Source: Eledone cirrhosa
Taxonomy: Eukaryota
Assembly (NCBI GenBank): GCA_964016885.1
Contig: OZ024740.1
Location: 313,162,001-313,226,000 of the forward strand
Direction: 5' to 3'
DNA length: 64,000 nt
The position numbers and the translations under genes were made by a program. The notes beneath the pieces were generated by a model, which was not told the origin of the DNA, searched no databases, and saw only the letters and a list, made by a program, of their open reading frames with translations. This document shows positions 461 to 61,075 of the stretch, piece after piece. Positions within the stretch are counted from its first letter, which is position 1, and the number at the start of each line of letters is the position of its first letter.

Positions 461-2764
461 ATATGTAATGTCAACACACATTGTTACTCTGGACATTTGC
501 ATGTTCCTGTTGGGTGTGTGTGTATTTTAGAAATATATACAATACTTAATTACACAAGCCGAAACCGCTTGGCGCCGCGGTCGGGATTTTACACATCTCA
601 ATACTTAATTACATAAATATTTCATATAACATTATGGAATCAACGAAAGAAAATATTACTTCAACAGTGTCAATCGGTCACACACCACAAAAGAAGCCGG
701 GGACTCCCTCTAATACTTATTGAGGCAAACCAACACACTCGCAGCATTTATGCGGGTGTTTTTGTTTGAAACATGATTTCGTCGAAATTCCCTGACAAGA
801 AATAAACATATAAGCCAACAGTTTTGTTTCCTTATTGGTCTGTATCAATGCTTTGGGGGAAAATTGCTTTCTCCACATCAATCTAACATCGATCACCCAT
901 CAACAACCAACAGTCACATCGACCATCGAACTAACCAAAACACACCAAGCCAACCTAACTCACTCAACATTTCTGTTAAACACCGCTAATGCTATCAGGG
1001 AAAATATGTCAACTTATTTACACCGTTAATGATTGCTTTACGGAAGAAAAGAACCAGAATCTGACCCGACAATTTGTATTCGTGTGTGTAAAAGGTTAGC
1101 TACGTGATATTATAAGGTAGATGTGTGACAGTAAAAGGTTGATAGATGATATTATGATACAAAGAAATATAAATACTAATTTACTGAAGTAATAAACGGG
1201 AGAAATCATACAAGATAAAAGTAACAGTAAAAAGTTAGAAGAGAGTTATCAGTGTTTAATAGGATACATAAAGTTATTTGTGACGGGTAGTTGACTGTGT
1301 GGCAATGGAGTTCAGAATGAAATACAGAAAATGTTATAATGGAAGAGGGTCAAGGATAATCAGTGTACTTAAAGTACACTGTCCTTTGGTGGGAAGTTTA
1401 ATGTAGGGACGCTCGAAGAATATCTACTTATGGTCCTGTACAGTGAGTATAGAAGGTATGTATGTAACATACAACTATTGACAATAGTTACCCTTAACAC
1501 ACCACTTTACGAGTTGTTTTTTTTTTGTTATAAAAAAAACGTAAATATACTTTATATAAGCCATCTACCATTCAAACTATACGGGGGTAGCCGCTATATG
1601 GCAGCTCAACAGCTGGAATGTTTCATATAGGTTTACCGGATCAGAATTGACCTGGGGTTAAACAACATCACATGCACGCACAAACACAGAACTGGTGAAC
1701 AACAAAACTGAAAACAAATATTGGCAAGGCTTTCAAAATCACCAAAGGGGTACATAATAGCAAGTACCATATATATAGGGAGAGAGATTTACCCAAAGCC
1801 TACTTCACTCCTCCTCCTCAAATATGAAAATCTCTGACGTTTTGTTTGACAGAATAAGACAAGTAAAAATAAATATTAAAATTTAAATGTATAAAAGGAA
1901 ACAATAAATGAAAGCTAGAGTAATTATAATGGGTAGAATAAATAAAGTTTATGGCGATATTGAGAGAGAAAAAATATCACAGAAAAGTCATCAACATTCA
2001 TGATTCGTTTGCCATGGGGAGAGTCAAGGAAAGTATTGACATGTTTTAATGTGTAGTACAATTGTGACAGTTTATCCTATTATCTGCGGTTTTGTATGAA
2101 ATGGTTTCCAATAACCATGTTAAAGAAAGAACGTGAAAATAATTGTCATAAGAGAGAAAAATAATATACCTAACAAAAACAAAAAAATTTTTAACTACCT
2201 CGAGCAGCAGCAACAACAAGGACACATGCCAACTTGTCAAATTTCGACTGCATTTACTAAGTCTCGTTTCGTCTCCCGCCCACTCGAGATTAACATTTTA
2301 AAATGTACTTTTAATTTTTTAATTATTTTTTTCAAATATTTAATTTAGAATTGTCTAATAGAACTTAAATTAATCAATTTTCATTGTTATTTTAGGTTTT
2401 AAAAAAAGATGAGGAAAACATAGGAAATTAGTTTCACTTATTCCATCCCAGCTTTTTCTTTGGTGATGTGGCATAAAAAATATATTGGAATATGTAACTT
2501 CAGATATTAAATATTGAATGCTGGGTTTATGAAAACAAAACAACGAAATTGGAAATAAAGAAATGTATTAACTAATTTCCATTTATTATGAGGGTTTTTT
2601 AAATATCTTATTTACAACATCCGGGACAGGGTCGGACGAATGTTAAATATTACTATTCTTTATTTCACACCGGCTGGCCATGTGCTCTTGTTAAATTAAC
2701 TCTATACAACACGTTAATGGTATAATAATTCTATCGTGAAGATTCGACGCGATAAATAATTCGA

Positions 2765-2831
2765 ATGGAACAAAAAAGGAAAACAGCTGCTTCGATTTCC
2801 AGAGAATTACTAGAGGTTGACAAGAGTTCAA
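2765..2831 (+). CDS. NOPCHAP1: NOPCHAP1/C12orf45-like (DUF4598) coding exon 1, MEQKRKTAASISRELLEVDKSS
   Basis: ATG at 2765, open frame, donor A|GTGAGT (phase 1). SRELL resembles the SKELL motif of C12orf45. Phase joins exon 2. Confidence 0.75.
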
Positions 2832-3822
2832 GTGAGTGTGTAATTAATTCATAGCGAACTGTTGAATATATTTGTAAAAGAAGTATATGCTCGTTCTAAT
2901 ACAAACTCCCAAGTGTCTATTTAACAGTATACAAATGTTATACGAATTCCCACCGATTATTGGAGTTTTAGATGTCGCTCTGTTATTCAATGGTTTACAA
3001 AGTTTTATTATTTTCTTAATAACCTAGCTAGAAAAATCGATGTTGAATCTGACCAGCTGAGAAATTACGGACTGTATATGCGTTAATTCTGGTTTTTAAA
3101 TATCCCAAAGCTGTTTATATATCAACAAAAGTGTCTACAGATGATTCTAAAAAAAAACAGTGTGTGTATGCTCTCCAGTTACTACGACTTAACTATTAAT
3201 GTCCTGTACCACATGAAACCACATTAGTAAGACATTCTTGCAAAGTATCAATCAAACAACACTGTGGTTATATTACATTATACATTGAAGTCTTTCCTTT
3301 AGTTTATTGCAAATGTTCACAATCCGTCCCCTAGTAAAGATACTATAAACATTTGAATTAAACCTGCAGTTTTAGATATTTTATAAATCTATAGAGGATT
3401 TTAACCGTTAATAAACCAGAGTAAGAAAGCATAATCAAAATATTACAAATAGCAGCCAAATACCTCATTAAATCACATCCTAGAACAAAAAAAGGATACT
3501 GGACAATGTGATATTGCGTGTTTAATGTCTGGAAGAAGGAGGTGAGATGGTAATAGCTGAAACGCCATTGAACAACACTTTTATAAGTTTATAAGTAACC
3601 TAATGTTTATCTGGATATATATATATATATAATATATATAATATATATATATATATATATAAAGTTTAATAGAAATGGCTTCTACAGGACTAGAACTGTT
3701 TCATTCAAATGAAATTATAGAGTACCTTACTAACTGGGGTTACCCCGATTGAATCCGGGACTCATATATATATATATTAGAATATAAATATTAATAAAAT
3801 AGATGTTATTTTGATCAATTAC

Positions 3823-3875
3823 ATTTTATTATACATATTTCGGATGTACAACAGTACGTTCTCATCAGACAAAAT
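3823..3875 (-). ncRNA. Hammerhead motif, inverted-arm copy
   Basis: Reverse complement of 3941-3993 with one extra stem II mismatch. Confidence 0.75.
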
Positions 3876-3940
3876 CTAATATATGACATACCCTGATTAA
3901 ATCTTAACCATTTAACATCTCAGGGTATGTCATATATCAT

Positions 3941-3993
3941 ATTTTGTCTGATGAGGACGTACTGTTGTACATCCGAAATATGTATAATAAAAT
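3941..3993 (+). ncRNA. Minimal type-I hammerhead ribozyme motif
   Basis: attttgt-CTGATGA-ggacgtac/tgtt/gtacatcc-GAAA-tATGTa-TA-ataaaat. Stem I is 7 bp; predicted cleavage after AUA at 3986. Confidence 0.85.
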
Positions 3994-4119
3994 GTAATTG
4001 ATCAAAAGAACATCTATTTTATTAATATTTATGTTCTAATATTAATAACTCCGGAAAATTATTGTATCGTAGAGTGCTTCCAATCTACTGTAAAACTCAT
4101 TGAGTTTTCTTTAACTCTT

Positions 4120-4160
<41 letters not shown>

Positions 4161-4185
4161 TGTAATAAACAACATAAGATAATTA

Positions 4186-4246
4186 TTTCATTTACCAGTG
4201 GTTTCTTGAAAGCAAGCAAATTTTGCTTTCAGTCATCAGAATGGAA
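4186..4246 (-). ncRNA. Hammerhead motif, second class (stem III CCA-C-TGG, GUA site)
   Basis: Minus strand ttccatt-CTGATGA-c-tgaaagcaa/aatttgc/ttgctttca-a-GAAA-ccactgg-TA-aatgaa. It lies in a module between (TA)n runs. Confidence 0.7.
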
Positions 4247-4373
4247 AAAATCCTGGGGTATTTATTGACAGTGGATTTTAAAAACCACAATATATATATA
4301 TATATAGAGAGAGAGATAAAGAGTTAAATCGGGGGTAACCACAGTGAATAAGGTACTCAATACATTAATAGAG

Positions 4374-5323: not shown

Positions 5324-5382
<59 letters not shown>

Positions 5383-5544
5383 AAAGTTCTATTTAAATTG
5401 TTGGGATACAACAAGCAAATATTTTTATAACTGATATAAAGCACTCAACAAGTATTTGGAGTAAACTATCCGGGAGCTTCCAACAGTAATGGTTGCATTT
5501 TTTAAGGGTATGTCAATATTTATTTATAAAACTGATCTATATTA

Positions 5545-5609
5545 TATTTTGTCTGATGAAAGCACACCATAATTTAACTTGGTGTCCTTGAAATATGTAT
5601 AATGAAATA
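5545..5609 (+). ncRNA. Hammerhead motif, divergent member of the 3941 family
   Basis: tattttgt-CTGATGA-aagcacacc/ataatttaactt/ggtgtcctt-GAAA-tatgta-TA-atgaaata. Stem II has a different sequence but the same pairing. Its module (5380-5650) is flanked by (TA)n. Confidence 0.8.
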
Positions 5610-5648
5610 AATATGGTTTTATAAATATAGTTTTTATTTGTTAATATC

Positions 5649-5700
<52 letters not shown>

Positions 5701-37138: not shown

Positions 37139-38926
37139 TTATGGATAAGCTACATTAAGACAATTAACTCGTTGAATACCAGGCCCAAGTGTTTCTATTT
37201 GCTCAAATGTATTTTTTTCAATGTCATAAGCATAAAGATTAGTGTTTGTGCCACCTACAATATATATTTTACCTCCAAATAGTGTTGCATAGGAGTAAAG
37301 AAGGCCGTATTCCGTTGGTGTGCTAAGAATCTCAGTCCATTGGTTTGTTTCAATATCGTAGCATTCATTTTTAAAGCTCTCTATAAAACCAAGCTCATTA
37401 TCTCGGGTGTTACCACCAAATATAAACAGCTTGTTCTCCACAGCAATAATGCCGTGCCTTTGATGAGGATAAATCATAGAAGCTTTACTTTCCCAGGTTT
37501 TTGTACTGAGACTATAGACATACAAATGTGAAACAGGTACTGCATATTCAGGGTTATCTGTAATGCCACCACTACAGTACAAACAGCCATTGGCAAAGGC
37601 ACTTGCATGATCGAATATTCCAACAGGTAAGTCAGAAATATTTAACCAAACATTTTCTTCAGGAAAATACATCTCGCAGCTTTGAAGAATACATTCCTCC
37701 TCACTGTTGTCTACAAACATATGATTAATGCCACCCAAAACAAACAGATTGCTGTCAGAGCTGCACATTGCGAAAGAAACTCGAGGGGTTTGCATTGAAG
37801 CGATCTCAATCCAAGATCTGAAGCGAGGGTCGAAAATAAATACACGGTTAGAACTACAATAATTACTTGTATAACCTCCTGCAATAAACAGGAAGTTTCC
37901 AAGTACAGTTTCTCTTGTATGCTCATAGCGAATGTCTACAGAGGAATGTAATTCTTCAACACAAAGTCCAGGGTTGTCCAGTTCCCTGTATGCAATACTT
38001 GTATACATTTCATCAGGAAAGAAAATCATGGTCAAGACTTCATGTGCTCCTCGTGGGAGAAGCTTTTCTCCATTCTGCAGACATTGCGCTTGAATGCATA
38101 AGACATAATTTTTTGCATATTCTATCTCTTTGTGGATTTCTTTAAACTCATGCACAAATTTGGGAATCAGTTCTAGTTCTTCAAGTTCCATGAGCGAAAA
38201 TCGTATTTCTTGAAGAAGTGGCATCATAGAAGGTTTGCGAGTGCATGGATCTTCATCAACCCAATCGATGATGAGTTTAAAAAGGAAATATTCATGAGCT
38301 TCCACATATATATCACATTGAAGGAATGCTAGGAGAAGGTTTTCCGGAAGATTCTGTAAAAACTTGGGCTGCTCTACTAGTGGAATAATATTTATTGCAA
38401 GTAATTGAAGAATATCAGGCTCTAAATCTCCAAGAGCAAATTTATCTGCTAAGTTCTGTACATAGGTATAATTCTCTAAACTCATATATTCTACCAGAAA
38501 GTTGCAGCACACATCAACGATCCAGTCAGCTTGGAAGAATCGAGCTACTTCTAAAACATCTTCAATGTTTTCTGGGCTAATGGTAATATTTCCATGGTAG
38601 AAATAGTCCAAAATAGCAGAAAATCCCTTTGGACTGATGTCTTTAATTTCAACAGCATCTTGCTCTTTTTCCTTCATATCATGGTGGAACATGGCTGAAA
38701 AGTAATCACTGGCTTCGGAGAGAACCTGTTTGTGTACCCGGAAGCTTGTCCCACCAACTGACAATTTGATGTCACATTTTGAATCATAAATCTTGTGCGG
38801 AAACTTCTGGTATTTTGTATTAATATATTTGATTTTGTTTTCAGAAATCTTCATACAATCCATTGCTGGTATATTCCCTATGTTTAAATTGGTATCAGAA
38901 TTTTTAGAATCTTCCGGAGAAGCTGA
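37139..38926 (-). CDS. Kelch-like protein (BTB-BACK-Kelch, probable CUL3 adaptor); one large coding exon
   Basis: 574-aa ORF with BTB (CDIKLSVGGTSFRVHKQVLSEASDYFSAMF), BACK and Kelch repeats (GG..., W....M). The frame stays open 21 codons upstream of the ATG to the acceptor ttttatctttccAG at 38927. Confidence 0.95.
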   Translation of the reverse strand, partial: SASPEDSKNSDTNLNIGNIPAMDCMKISENKIKYINTKYQKFPHKIYDSKCDIKLSVGGTSFRVHKQVLSEASDYFSAMFHHDMKEKEQDAVEIKDISPKGFSAILDYFYHGNITISPENIEDVLEVARFFQADWIVDVCCNFLVEYMSLENYTYVQNLADKFALGDLEPDILQLLAINIIPLVEQPKFLQNLPENLLLAFLQCDIYVEAHEYFLFKLIIDWVDEDPCTRKPSMMPLLQEIRFSLMELEELELIPKFVHEFKEIHKEIEYAKNYVLCIQAQCLQNGEKLLPRGAHEVLTMIFFPDEMYTSIAYRELDNPGLCVEELHSSVDIRYEHTRETVLGNFLFIAGGYTSNYCSSNRVFIFDPRFRSWIEIASMQTPRVSFAMCSSDSNLFVLGGINHMFVDNSEEECILQSCEMYFPEENVWLNISDLPVGIFDHASAFANGCLYCSGGITDNPEYAVPVSHLYVYSLSTKTWESKASMIYPHQRHGIIAVENKLFIFGGNTRDNELGFIESFKNECYDIETNQWTEILSTPTEYGLLYSYATLFGGKIYIVGGTNTNLYAYDIEKNTFEQIETLGPGIQRVNCLNVAYP

Positions 38927-39889
38927 CTGGAAAGATAAAAGTGAAAAAAAAAACCAATAGAAATTAGTAAATTAATAAAAATTAATTAAATATATATTTT
39001 GAAATACAGCCATGTGTGAATGTTTTAAAACTGGTGGAAGAAATTCTATTTTTATTAGTTAAAGTAGAAGAGGCAGTGAGTTGGCTAAGTGGTTGAGCAT
39101 TGGAGAAAAATGTTTTACCTTTCATCCTTCAGGGATTGATAAAATAATGTATCAGTTAAGTACTGGGGTTGATATAATCCACTTTCCCCTTCTCCGAAAT
39201 TTGCTGGCCTTGTACCAATGTTAAAAAGAAATATTTAGAAGAAGAAGCATCAGTGCCCATGATCTTTGAAGGCAACCCCAAACTGGTGAAATGGAAGCAT
39301 ATGGCCTAGTAGTAAGGGTGTTGGGCTAACGATCATAATGTTGTGGTTTCATTCTTGGACTGGGTTGTGTGTTGTGTTCTTGAGCAAAACATTTCATTTC
39401 ATATTGCTTCAGTATACTCAGCTGAAAATGAGTATCAGCGATAAGAGAGGGGTTTAACCAGCGATGGACTGGCATCTTGTCCAATGGGGGAGTTTTGTAC
39501 TCTCAGTCGGTTCATGCCACAGAAACTGGGTGATGTAAAGTTTTACCATTAACACTGGTAGGAAAAATATGTGAGAAGTGAAATATAAATTGAAGATCTG
39601 GAGAAAAATGTTAGGGCAAAGTATTTTGTATGAAAACAGTAGGGTTATAAGAGGAAGAGAGGCAAGTATAACAAATAGGCCAGGTCAGAACACAAAATGT
39701 CAGAACAAATTCCACAAGACATTTCATTTGATATTTGAAATATAGCACTGTTAGTATTTATAAAACAGCATTGATTAGTCACTGCCAACACACATAATTC
39801 TTAATAGCCTAGTCTGCCTAGTAGTATATGTGTTCCACAGTAAAGTGAAATTTTACCTTACTGTAATGAAGAAGTCTGATTCAATCCAG

Positions 39890-53076: not shown

Positions 53077-53232
53077 CTAAAATGTCATGTCTGATATAAA
53101 CGTCCAAACTGAATGAACTGAATAGATTGTTCAGATCCTCATACATCAAAATCTATGGGAGAGTCCATCATATGAATATATATATATATTAATTCAAATA
53201 TTAACAAAATAGATATTCTTGTGATCAATTAA

Positions 53233-53297
53233 ATTTTATTATACATATTTCAGAGGTACCGAATCAAGTTCAACAGTACGTCCTCATCAGATAAAAT
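53233..53297 (-). ncRNA. Hammerhead motif, left arm
   Basis: Minus strand attttat-CTGATGA-ggacgtactg...cggtacctct-GAAA-tatgta-TA-ataaaat. Confidence 0.8.
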
Positions 53298-54023
53298 AAT
53301 GATACATGACATACCCCGACATGTTAGATGGTTCAGATTTAATCAAGGTAGTGATTAACTTATGAGAAAACTCAATATTTATACCCTAATATTGAGAACA
53401 TGTGAAAACGTAATAGAATCAATAGAGAGAGTGTGATTAAGAAAAACATTGCCTTAATGCAACAGTTATAGAATTTTTAAAATTTGAAATACTACTATAG
53501 AACTTTGCTGTAGAGGAAAGTATAGAGGAAGACGTATCTGGAGTTATAATTTATTTAGTATTTAGCTTTAGAAGACAAATGACATAATTAAAGAGAGGGA
53601 GAGACAAAGGGGAGTAATTTATGCTCAAATTTCTTTAGACACACAAACATATTGATGGTTAAATTTCAAAATATTTAATTTATGCTATTTCAGGGTAAAG
53701 AATCAAAATTTTAGGTTTTAAAAGTTGATGGTTATTTGTATTAATTTTATAATATAATTATGTTAAATTTCTAAAATTCAAAGTTTTATGAAGATACATT
53801 TAAAGGATTTAAGAAGCCTGCGAAAGAAAGAAAATATAATGTTCAATATTTCCACAAAGCTAATCTTTAACAAAATTACTTGTAACACTGACAACATTTT
53901 CTATAATATAATTTATGAGATATTTATAGTTATAACTATTAAGGAATTTATTGTTAAATAGTTATAGTGCCTAAAGTATTAGCAGGTCATATAATTAAAC
54001 CTAAAGTAGTCAGAGTTTTCAGC

Positions 54024-54054
<31 letters not shown>

Positions 54055-55029
54055 ATTGATCATAATATCAGGACTATAATTTATTATTTGTTCATATATT
54101 GTATTAAGTAATTATATTAGTTCTACCTTCTAGGGAAAACCGAACTCTAATTATGATTATGTTATTATACAATTTAAATATATTTGTACAAACTATATAT
54201 AGAGATATACCGATTATGTTATTACACTAGATAAAGATATTTGCACAAACTATACATTGATATACTAGATATTAATGAGACGGTATATATATATACATAA
54301 AAATCAAAGCGCAAAACCAACTTTCTCTAATATTCTCTAATATTGTTTGTTAAATATACATAAAAAGCAAAGCGCAAAACCAACTTTCTTTCAGAAAGTT
54401 GGTTTTGCGCTTTGCTTTTTATGTATATTTAACAAACAATATTAGCAGGCAAATATTGGTTTATCTCTCCACTGAACTGGAGGTAGAACTATTAACAGTG
54501 TTTGTAATCGCTATGTTTTATTGGATATATACCGTCTCATTAATATCTAGTATATCAATGTATAGTTTGTGCAAATATCTTTATCTAGTGTAATAACATA
54601 ATCGTAGTTACACATATATGAAACTACTAACAAAGATTATAATCATTATTCTTTATTAAATGTATACCGTCTCATTAATACTTAGTATATCTCTATATAT
54701 AGTTTGTACACATATGTTTATATTGTATAATAACATAGTTATAGTTACAGTTCGGTATATCTCTATATATAGTTTGTACAAATATATTTATATTGTATGA
54801 TAACATAATCATAATTAGAGTTCGGTTTTCCCTAGAAGGTAGAACTAATATAATTACTTAATATAATATATGAACAAATAATAAATTATAGTCCTGATAT
54901 TATGATCAATACATACACACATATATATATATATATAGCTGAAAACTGACTACTTTAGGTTTAATTATAAGACCTGCTAATACTTTAGGCACTATAACTA
55001 TTTAACAGTAAATTCCTTAATAGTTATAA

Positions 55030-56098
55030 TAATAATGAAATTATTGTGTACAGTGCTCAGGTGCACTACAACTCATCAAAGGTGCATGTATAGTACATAG
55101 AATAATGTACAAATGTCAGGAAAATAAACAGTGTATGAGTCATGATATAATAACAATAACAATAATGAAATATTGTGTACAGTGCCCAGGTGCACCACAA
55201 CTCATCAAAAAAGTGCATGTACAGTACATAGGGCAATGCACAAACATCAGTAAAATGAACAGTGCACGAGTCATGATACACACATGTGTGCATGTGTATG
55301 GAAGGGGTACATCAGGTGTAGTTTTGGCGTATTTCGGGAAGCATGAGTGTCTCGGCAGCTAACAATTGACGCAGGCAGTTTGTTCCATGCTTCAGCAACT
55401 CTGAGCGTGAAAAAATGTCTGCGAAAGTCATGGGAGCTGTGCTGTTTTCTTATCTTGTAGGCATGTCCACGTGTGTTAGACACATGGAGATCAAAGAGGC
55501 GCTCAGGGTTGCAGTTGGCGAGATGGTTAAAAACTTTGTGGGTATTCACCAAGTCCATTGCCAGACGTCGGAGCTTCAATGAATCCATGCCCAGGGAAGC
55601 AAGGCGTTCAGAGTATGGTAGGTGTCTGATGGAGGGTATGCGCTTGGTTGCACGTCTCTGAACAGTTTCCAGGAGGTCAATGTTCCGAGCAAGATAGGGG
55701 TTCCAGACTGATGATGCGAATTCCAAGTGTGGTCGCACCATAGCTGTATACAGTTTTAAATAGATGGCTGGAGAGCGGCTAACAAAGGTCTTGCTGAGTG
55801 ATGCCAAGACACCCTCGGCCTTCTTGACAATCTTAGAGACATGCTTTGTCCAACGCAAATCGTTGCTGACAGTAATGCCCAGGTCACGTTCACAAGAGGA
55901 CTTTTTGATGTCAGTGTTGTGGAGGGAGTATGTGGACGCTGGATTTTTCCTTCCAAAATGCATGGTGGTACACTTGTCCACAGCCAGCTTCAGTTGCCAG
56001 TCTGTGATCCATTGCTGCATTGTGTCCAGGTCTGATTGTAGGAAAGAGTTGTAAATTTCAGGATCAGTCCTTTTGATTTCAAGGTACAGCTTGATGTC
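55030..56098 (-). mobile_element. 5'-truncated CR1-type LINE inserted in the right arm of the palindrome
   Basis: Open ORF (ERDLG, LY..MVRPHLE..SSVWNP, LE.VQRRATK, L..RR), (ATT)n tail, duplicated 3' UTR, 4-bp ATAA at both junctions. Tail fragments also at 25361, 42865 and 44700. Confidence 0.95.
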
Positions 56099-56737
56099 AT
56101 AACTATAAATATCTCATAAATTATATTATAGAAAATGTTGTCAGTGTTACAAGTAATTTTGTTAAAGATTACCTTTGTGGAAATATTGAACATTATATTT
56201 TCTTTCTTTCGCAGGCTTCGTAAATCCTTTAAATGTGTCTTCATAAAACTTTGAATTTTAGAAATTTAACATAATTATATTATAAAATTAATACAAATAA
56301 CCAACTTTTAAAACCTAAAATTTTAATTCTTTACCCTGAAATAGCATAAATTAAATATTTTGAAATTTAACCATCAATATATGTTTATGTGTGTCTAAAG
56401 AAATTTGAGCATAAATTACTCCCCTTTGTCTCTCCATCTCTTTAATTATGTCATTTGTCTTCTAAAGCTAAATACTAAATAAATTATAACTCCAGATACG
56501 TCTTCCTCTATACTTTCCTCTACAGCAAAGTTCTATAGTAGTATTTCAAATTTTAAAAATTCTATAACTGTTGCATTAAGGCAATGTTTTTCTTAATCAC
56601 ACTCTCTCTATTGATTCTATTACGTTTTCTCATGTTCTCAATATTAGGGTATAAATATTGAGTTTTCTCATAAGTTAATCACTACCTTGATTAAATCTGA
56701 ACCATCTAACATGTCAGGGTATGTCATGTATCATTTT

Positions 56738-56802
56738 ATTTTATCTGATGAGGACGTACTGTTGAACTTGATTCAGTACCTCTGAAATATGTATAATAAA
56801 AT
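56738..56802 (+). ncRNA. Hammerhead motif, right arm
   Basis: attttat-CTGATGA-ggacgtactg/ttgaacttgatt/cagtacctct-GAAA-tatgta-TA-ataaaat; predicted cut after 56795. Confidence 0.85.
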
Positions 56803-56943
56803 TTAATTGATCACAAGAATATCTATTTTGTTAATATTTGAATTAATATTAATAACTCTGGAAAATCTCCTTTGTAGAGTGCTTCCAATCTACTGTAAAA
56901 CTCATTCTTTGATGTACTCATTGAATCTTGTTTAACTCTTTAA

Positions 56944-61075
<4,132 letters not shown>

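What the first reader, a model, noticed from the sequence alone, without database searches (positions are those of the whole stretch)
3774..4121. Two independent insertions 50 kb apart invert at the same nucleotide and share a 3' tail
Seen: in both the 350-bp and the 3.7-kb element, the inverted arm starts at ...AATAT|TAATAACTC and merges with (TA)n. Only the sense arm continues into an 80-95-nt tail (gtagagtgcttccaatctactgtaaaactcatt...tttaactctt) followed by (TA)n. The fold-back point varies, but the outer breakpoint does not. Established: PLEs often have an inverted 5' pLTR lacking the 3' tail extension. Inference: two priming events on opposite strands of a (TA)n target, one using ATAT microhomology, so each insertion creates a palindrome.
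Basis: partly seen in the sequence, partly recalled or inferred. Interest (0 to 1): 0.72.

Follow-up and report, generated by a model that had tools for sequence, protein, structure and literature searches.

The report
Twin-primed Hydra Penelope retrotransposon stubs
Both mirror-image inserts are truncated copies of one abundant family of a known kind of jumping gene (Hydra-type Penelope retrotransposons) sitting in TA repeats; the shape is already published, and the fixed ends likely arise because the element's RNA is copied once from each cut DNA strand, starting at two set points 95 bases apart.

Summary
Observation confirmed and extended genome-wide. Elements A (3774-4121) and B (53186-56943, including a ~1.06-kb LINE insert) are head-to-head copies of two subfamilies of one Penelope-like element (PLE); its ORF meets the Hydra-clade motifs. 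In 72 resolved two-armed insertions, 70 have exactly one tailed arm. Of 71 ends scored tail-less, 54 stop exactly at AATAT| and 63 abut (TA)n (background 2-8%). Corrections: the tail is 94-95 nt (A lost 16). Either arm can be the long, ORF-bearing one. Full-length copies show the tail end is also inside the template and also has TA microhomology. Both ends lie about 5 nt before a similar bulged hairpin, and many arms stop at a TATA/Inr-like start. Fourteen tailed arms are 125 nt or shorter, which argues against simple fold-back of one cDNA and for twin priming. Inverted pLTR, one-sided tail, (TA)n targeting and two RT start sites are published. I did not find twin priming stated for PLEs in six literature searches, but this scan has already noted it many times, in this genome and others. 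No orthologous empty site or RNA evidence was obtained. A new member of a known kind, with useful mechanistic statistics.

The parts
3764..3777 (.). Left (AT)n flank of element A; last 4 nt shared with the arm (ATAT microhomology)
3774..3896 (-). Element A tail-less arm, outer end at internal site 2 (AATAT|); carries a hammerhead copy with a G-to-A change at the base of stem II
3889..4121 (+). Element A tailed arm; 5' end 2-7 nt inside the predicted transcription start; TGA (or 7 of 8 nt TACCCTGA) shared with the other arm at the inner junction
3940..3993 (+). Minimal type I hammerhead motif (CUGAUGA 3948-3954, GAAA 3975-3978, palindromic stem/loop III, predicted cut after 3986); activity untested
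   Evidence: features from PMC4209133 passages; not hit by Rfam
4020..4048 (+). AU-rich 10-bp stem-loop containing site 2 (4042|4043) in its 3' strand
4043..4121 (+). Tail, 79 nt here (16-nt deletion; family 94-95 nt); begins with bulged hairpin 1 (ACTC 4048-4051 ... GAGT 4072-4075)
4122..4156 (.). Right (TA)n flank of element A
53186..54389 (-). Element B tail-less arm (3' UTR plus pLTR to site 2), hammerhead core 53248-53290
54390..54392 (.). 3-nt loop at the inner junction of element B
54393..56943 (+). Element B tailed arm, 97.6% identical to the other arm over 757 nt; interrupted by a later insertion
55036..56095 (-). Secondary insertion: RT-encoding LINE fragment (280-aa frame, weak RVT_1 hit below cut-off) with a 131-bp tandem; absent from the other arm
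56650..56686 (+). TATAAA at -31 and Inr-like TCA(+1)CTAC (A at 56681): predicted pLTR promoter and RNA 5' end
   Evidence: consensus spacing is recalled knowledge
56745..56787 (+). Hammerhead core of element B tailed arm (longer loop 2 than A)
56850..56943 (+). Tail of element B, 94 nt

Best explanation
A and B are 5'-truncated two-armed insertions of a Hydra-clade Penelope-like retrotransposon, likely made by twin target-primed reverse transcription, in which both strands of a (TA)n tract would be cut and each 3' end would prime its own cDNA at one of two fixed sites in the element's RNA. Shown: family identity, two fixed end positions 94-95 nt apart, one of each per insertion, both inside the template, both with TA microhomology, variable inner junctions, (TA)n flanks. 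Inferred: (1) a capped-type Pol II transcript starts at the TATA/Inr in a pLTR; (2) the RT-EN protein, probably a dimer, binds the two bulged hairpins that lie about 5 nt 3' of each site; (3) because (TA)n is self-complementary, both nicked strands anneal to the AUAU at site 1 (tail end) and site 2 (AATAT|); (4) the two cDNAs extend until they stall or run off the RNA 5' end and are joined 3' to 3', giving head-to-head arms with a tail on one side; (5) one RNA molecule, or at least one source lineage, serves both primers, with the site-2 cDNA usually leading.
For: One-tail rule: 71 of 72 pairs by script, 70 of 72 after L090 was re-read by eye; in sets found without a tail query 44 of 46, p = 1.5e-11 against 50%. 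Fixed site 2: 54 of 71 exact. Site 1 is internal: full-length copies L171, L173, L175, L177, L180, L189 continue from the tail into the ORF through TTTAA-TATATATT-GCTC or a variant. Fourteen of 70 tailed arms are 125 nt or shorter, 9 of them 62 nt or shorter, while the partner is 149-4950 nt, so the partner cannot be a copy of the tailed cDNA. Only the tail-less arm passes the predicted start in 18 pairs, only the tailed arm in 1, both in 18, neither in 33. 41 of 144 arms have 5' ends within 10 nt of the Inr, against 7 in the 50 nt upstream and 17 in the 50 nt downstream; 10 of 26 for partner arms not constrained by the query. Arms share lineage markers (354 of 407 sites in subfamily A versus 0.60 shuffled; 119 of 137 in B versus 0.54) and 16 of 47 pairs share a rare variant versus about 2% shuffled. 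Twin hairpins NCTC-CC/CGG-loop-TW-GAGY follow both sites, A-U versus G-C at the outer pair. In vitro, a Poseidon PLE cuts and extends both strands, starts RT at two internal sites that bound the tail, and is predicted to be a dimer (PMC11167929).
Against: No biochemical or RNA data: the start site, hammerhead cleavage and hairpin function are predictions. A 3-nt indel differs between arms in about 11 of 37 subfamily-A pairs and is shared in 1, which needs recurrent slippage or two RNAs. Two pairs join different lineages (L013 79.6%, L090 84.1%). Arm similarity could also come from gene conversion or two RNAs of one source. The highest shuffled concordance for subfamily B (0.880) reached the observed 0.869. 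Inner junctions show no clear microhomology excess (4 of 32 with 3 nt or more versus 7.7% null) and many carry filler or mismatches. Hammerhead-anchored pairing found 2 of 52 pairs with no tail and 3 arms ending 49-78 nt upstream of site 2. Tail-less arms under about 45 nt are invisible to the script, which could inflate the 18:1 asymmetry. Samples are top-scoring hits, not random copies. The hairpin outer stem is almost invariant within the family, so covariation is thin, and the inner stem is often imperfect.
Confidence: 0.7

Rival explanations
1. Fold-back of one cDNA: a single priming at the tail end, then the cDNA folds on itself and is copied back until AATAT, where it joins the other target end.
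For: Element B has a near-perfect hairpin junction with a 3-nt loop; 9 script-scored pairs have arms of equal 5' reach within 10 nt; arms are of one lineage.
Against: Needs the tailed arm to reach at least as far 5' as its partner; the tail-less arm reaches more than 20 nt further in 38 of 70 pairs, and 14 tailed arms are 125 nt or shorter.
Confidence: 0.07
2. Self-priming on an antisense transcript makes a hairpin intermediate, and endonuclease resolution leaves the tail on one side (proposed in PMC3846280 and, for the tail, PMC8557442).
For: Explains head-to-head geometry and palindromic junctions such as B's; site 2 lies in a DNA palindrome that an endonuclease could cut.
Against: Predicts symmetric junctions; most are asymmetric by tens to thousands of bases. 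5' ends pile up at a sense-strand TATA/Inr. Both ends show microhomology of the kind expected for priming on sense RNA.
Confidence: 0.1
3. Two-ended priming, but on two separate RNA molecules (or on the 5' and 3' pLTRs of one long RNA, as in L1 twin priming), with the protein's asymmetry enforcing one site of each kind.
For: Arm-discordant 3-nt indel in about 11 of 37 pairs and two mixed-lineage pairs; in 18 long-long pairs either arm can be longer; a few short arms stop at the predicted start while the partner runs on (L034, L064, L088).
Against: Mixed-lineage pairs are 2 of 54 compared, one of them tail-tail and one three-part, so they look like separate events; rare variants shared by both arms in 16 of 47 pairs.
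Confidence: 0.25
4. The small palindromes are a MITE-like unit copied whole, or arise after insertion by inverted duplication.
For: 33 of 70 pairs are of similar small size.
Against: Inner junction sequences differ from copy to copy, sizes grade up to full-length ORF-bearing elements, and the common size follows from run-off at the predicted start.
Confidence: 0.03

Closest known systems
Hydra clade of C-terminal EN+ Penelope-like elements (Craig et al. 2021, PMC8557442; passages, section 15 and supplement passages seen), e.g. Hydra-1_Obim, Hydra-2_Amil
   Same: [quoted passage not shown]
   Different: Unit is 4.3-4.8 kb with a long 3' UTR versus 'generally <3 kb'; tail 94-95 nt versus 30-40; by eye a different family from Hydra-1_Obim (not aligned by tool).
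Typical EN+ PLE insertion: inverted 5'-truncated pLTR, tail at one end, palindrome at the junction (PMC3846280, PMC8557442; passages seen)
   Same: Same architecture, including 'tail at either end' and no visible TSD in microsatellites.
   Different: The passages describe the tail as optional or often one-sided; here it is quantified as a near-strict one-tail rule with either arm long.
Poseidon PAc in vitro system (Frangieh et al. 2024, PMC11167929; parts 1-2 of 4 read)
   Same: Two internal RT start sites bounding the tail, both strands cut and extended, AT-rich target, uncut hammerhead RNA as template.
   Different: PAc starts at RNA sites without homology to the cut DNA and inside the ORF; here both sites carry TA microhomology and lie in the 5' UTR. 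The parts read do not link the two sites to the two arms of one insertion.
L1 twin priming (recalled, not read here)
   Same: Two primers from one target break give an inverted 5' segment.
   Different: L1's second site is variable and the segments barely overlap; here the second site is fixed and the arms usually duplicate the same sequence.
Minimal PLE hammerheads (Cervera and de la Pena 2014, PMC4209133; passages seen)
   Same: Long helix II, short helix I, 2-bp helix III with palindromic loop.
   Different: Activity untested here; arm ends do not concentrate at the predicted cut site.

Membership tests
EN+ Penelope-like elements | Single ORF with RT and GIY-YIG-type endonuclease | tested here: met
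   554-636-aa frames with RT motifs and C-terminal VY..YIG nuclease, collinear with the pLTR in many loci; top homologue carries PF01541; own Pfam scan gave no hit
EN+ Penelope-like elements | Partial tandem giving pLTRs on both sides of the ORF | tested here: met
   L171, L173, L180 and others have pLTR-ORF-pLTR
EN+ Penelope-like elements | Inverted 5'-truncated copy with tail on one end | tested here: met
   70 of 72 pairs
EN+ Penelope-like elements | Hammerhead motif in pLTR | tested here: met
   core and stems by pattern scan and alignment; Rfam no hit; MFE fold does not give the hammerhead fold
EN+ Penelope-like elements | Hammerhead self-cleavage | not testable with these tools
   no RNA data
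Hydra clade | RWK and DKT motifs | tested here: met
   RRLRWRAF (RWR variant) and SDKTNN
Hydra clade | CxCX5C linker; CxxC and CxH around conserved E and N; no CCHH | tested here: met
   CNCRNKTDC, CALCTME, LINKKSE, CLH; one Cys between VY and YIG; definition
Hydra clade | (TA)n insertion preference | tested here: met
   129 of 144 outer ends versus 2-8% background
Hydra clade | Short length (<3 kb, 'generally') | tested here: not met
   4276-4765 nt between pLTR starts; described as a tendency, not diagnostic
Hydra clade | Phylogenetic placement with Hydra RTs | not tested
   reference proteins were only viewed in the supplement; no tree built
Neptune clade | CX2-5CxxC linker and CCHH motif | tested here: not met
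   my first guess, rejected
Naiad/Chlamys | N-terminal endonuclease, no canonical hammerhead | tested here: not met
   endonuclease is C-terminal, hammerhead present
Non-LTR retrozymes | Tandem head-to-tail hammerhead monomers without an ORF | tested here: not met
   arms are head-to-head truncations of an ORF-bearing element

The most novel reading that the evidence does not exclude
PLEs integrate by obligate two-ended priming: a dimeric RT-endonuclease reads two tandem bulged hairpins on one RNA and starts one cDNA 5 nt before each, on opposite strands of a self-complementary (TA)n cut, with the upstream (tail-less) cDNA leading. This single step would account for the inverted pLTR, the one-sided tail and the abundant ~400-bp palindromes, and gives exact cis-elements to mutate.
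Probability: 0.5. Interest if true: 0.55.

Novelty: new member of a known kind. Interest (0 to 1): 0.3.

Why it matters
How PLEs form inverted repeats and one-sided tails is named as an open question in PMC8557442. This family gives countable rules (one tail per insertion, two fixed sites, both with target microhomology, 5' ends at a promoter-like start, hairpins next to both sites) that turn the question into specific in vitro tests. It also warns annotators that such 350-450-bp palindromes are PLE stubs, not MITEs or microRNA precursors. The locus itself is ordinary.

Tried and rejected
Neptune assignment: rejected on motifs. Rfam found no hammerhead, only hairpin look-alikes below gathering scores. 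Pfam gave nothing for the RT-EN frames. Empty site: contigs of four runs laid on window 2400-4370 and on L027 did not bridge either site; the one long skip at L027 (1253-2103) has CT..AC ends and looks like an intron on the minus strand, not an empty allele. A search for paralogous empty sites among 72 flank pairs gave 2 candidates, one (L045 versus L065) with pure (TA)n between the same flanks, weak because those flanks are repeat ends. No RNA holder listed. Extra G opposite a cap: the G before ACTACC is usually explainable by the partner arm; inconclusive. Inner-junction microhomology: no clear excess. A MITE around element A (inverted match 3716-3753/4324-4362): dropped, the flanks look like stubs of other (TA)n-targeting families. 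First pairing script mis-scored four pairs as tail-less on both sides; fixed, where 3 candidate pairs were dropped for a gap over 60 nt or an arm under 30 nt, and 73 ends stayed unpaired (many interrupted by later insertions or running past the fetched DNA). In one search L090 and L115 (tail-tail) were left out and L006, L116, L013 were set by hand.

Full report
Observation. Element A spans 3774-4121: an inverted arm from 3774, a forward arm from about 3889 to 4042, a 79-nt tail and (TA)n on both sides. Its only long relatives in the window are the two arms of element B, 53186-54389 and 54393-56943. In both, the tail-less arm ends where the tailed arm reads AATAT|TAATAACTC. A and B match at 206 of 268 columns and represent two subfamilies. 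B's tailed arm holds a later ~1.06-kb LINE fragment that the other arm lacks.

Identity. Each arm carries a minimal hammerhead motif of the kind described for PLE pLTRs (PMC4209133 passages); Rfam does not detect it. Longer genomic copies extend through a 3' UTR of about 1.5-2 kb into an ORF with RT motifs and a C-terminal nuclease. Full-length pLTR-ORF-pLTR copies exist, 4.3-4.8 kb per unit. The protein has RWR, DKT, CxCX5C, CxxC and CxH and lacks CCHH, the published diagnostics of the Hydra clade (PMC8557442), and is collinear by eye with Hydra-1_Obim in that paper's supplement. The family is large: first-look candidates were 991, 2274 and 389 for three DNA queries and 68,822 for the nuclease; these are not copy numbers.

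Census. I fetched 189 loci found by a tail query, two tail-free core queries and two protein queries, merged into 130 regions. Hammerhead-anchored scoring of the first 134 loci gave 171 arms, 82 tailed and 89 tail-less, 61 of the latter exactly at AATAT|; 49 of 52 head-to-head pairs had one tail, 1 had two, 2 had none. A second method that also sees tail-only arms resolved 72 pairs, 71 with one tail; L090 proved on reading to be two tailed arms of different lineages, leaving 70. Among pairs found without a tail query the count is 44 of 46 (p = 1.5e-11 against 50%). Of 71 script-called tail-less ends 54 are exact and 62 within 2 nt; 63 of 71 and 66 of 73 tailed ends abut (TA)n, against 2.0-8.3% of random positions. 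These are best-scoring hits, not a random sample.

What sets the ends. In full-length copies the tail continues through TTTAATATATATTGCTC (or a lineage variant) into the ORF, so the tail end is an internal template site with up to 8 nt of TA microhomology. The template offers other TA stretches at -98, -59, -8 and +81, and these are rarely used, so microhomology permits but does not choose. Site 2 sits in an AU-rich 10-bp stem-loop kept across lineages. Following a lead from earlier scan notes, I found a bulged hairpin NCTC..TW-GAGY beginning 5 nt after site 2 (109 arms) and a similar one after site 1 (14 internal copies), at a distance compatible with 5 nt given the microhomology. The outer stem is nearly invariant and the inner stem of hairpin 1 often imperfect, so its function is inferred.

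Inner ends. 41 of 144 arms stop within 10 nt of TCA(+1)CTAC, which has TATAAA or TATATA at about -31; 10 of 26 unconstrained partner arms do so. This reads as run-off at the RNA 5' end (inference; no RNA data were obtained). Element A is such a product. Junction sequences vary and show no clear microhomology excess. Either arm may be the long one: only the tail-less arm passes the predicted start in 18 pairs, only the tailed arm in 1, both in 18, neither in 33; 14 tailed arms are 125 nt or shorter. A single cDNA folding back from the tail cannot produce these. Very short tail-less arms would be missed, which may inflate the asymmetry.

One template or two. Arms are 96.7% identical at the median (54 pairs), share lineage markers (87% versus 54-60% shuffled; for subfamily B one shuffle reached the observed value) and share rare variants in 16 of 47 pairs versus about 2%. 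Against a single RNA: a 3-nt indel differs between arms in about 11 of 37 pairs, and two pairs mix lineages. One source lineage is shown; one molecule is not.

Mechanism. Most likely both strands of a (TA)n tract are nicked, each end anneals to AUAU at one of two sites, and the two cDNAs are joined 3' to 3'. This joins the in vitro findings for a Poseidon PLE (two internal RT starts bounding the tail, both strands cut and extended, predicted dimer; PMC11167929 parts 1-2) to the long-known genomic architecture (PMC3846280 and PMC8557442 passages). The published alternative, antisense self-priming, fits symmetric junctions such as B's but not the asymmetric majority.

Novelty. Inverted pLTR, one-sided tail, (TA)n bias and two RT start sites are in print. 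An explicit twin-priming account for PLEs did not appear in my searches of the held library (subscription papers and unread supplements may hold it). The scan itself has reached this reading often: 130 findings in at least 27 genomes match the words, and several in this genome name the Hydra clade, the hairpins and the start-site run-off. I had reached twin priming and the start-site pile-up before those look-ups and the Hydra assignment; the twin-hairpin test came from them. Verdict: real, a new family of a known clade with a known shape; interest 0.3.

Noticed in passing
window 5380-5650: A third two-armed stub of a different family between two (TA)n runs: short tailed arm on the minus strand with the same ACTC..TT-GAGT hairpin, and a tail-less hammerhead arm on the plus strand (core 5553-5593, 9-bp stem II with a different sequence).
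   Followed up: partly
window 4157-4290: Directly right of element A, another hammerhead stub (core 4202-4239, minus strand, 9-bp stem II) ending in (TA)n.
   Followed up: partly
window 3661-3765 and 4322-4362: Ends of very high-copy repeats (summed contig depth about 6e5 at 3654-3719) abutting (TA)n; element A sits in a nest of TA-associated stubs.
   Followed up: partly
window 55036-56095: RT-encoding LINE fragment with a 131-bp tandem, inserted into a short TATAA palindrome of B's tailed arm.
   Followed up: partly
window 56943-61069: 4.1-kb AT-type microsatellite array (87% matches) directly after B's tail.
   Followed up: no
window 37139-38971 (-): 610-aa open frame with BTB, BACK and Kelch domains, a KLHL-like host gene exon.
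   Followed up: no
L125, L116, L010, L051 inner junctions: Short tandem repeats of the first 15-86 nt after the predicted start, as if RT jumped repeatedly at the RNA 5' end.
   Followed up: no
L178 (G000:C1:247356000-247365999): Palindrome of two near-full-length arms, each with its own 5' pLTR and ORF.
   Followed up: no
L062/L063 (G000:C2:391564452-391582451): Three head-to-tail copies about 3.7-3.8 kb apart with identical flanks, probably a segmental tandem duplication.
   Followed up: no
L027:1253-2103: A contig of run X4 skips 849 nt with CT..AC ends, suggesting this insertion lies in an intron of a minus-strand gene.
   Followed up: no
pLTR about 10 nt upstream of the hammerhead core (window 3936-3940): A 3-nt indel in CATTATATTT that differs between the two arms of about 11 of 37 pairs: a slippage hot spot or a sign of two templates.
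   Followed up: partly
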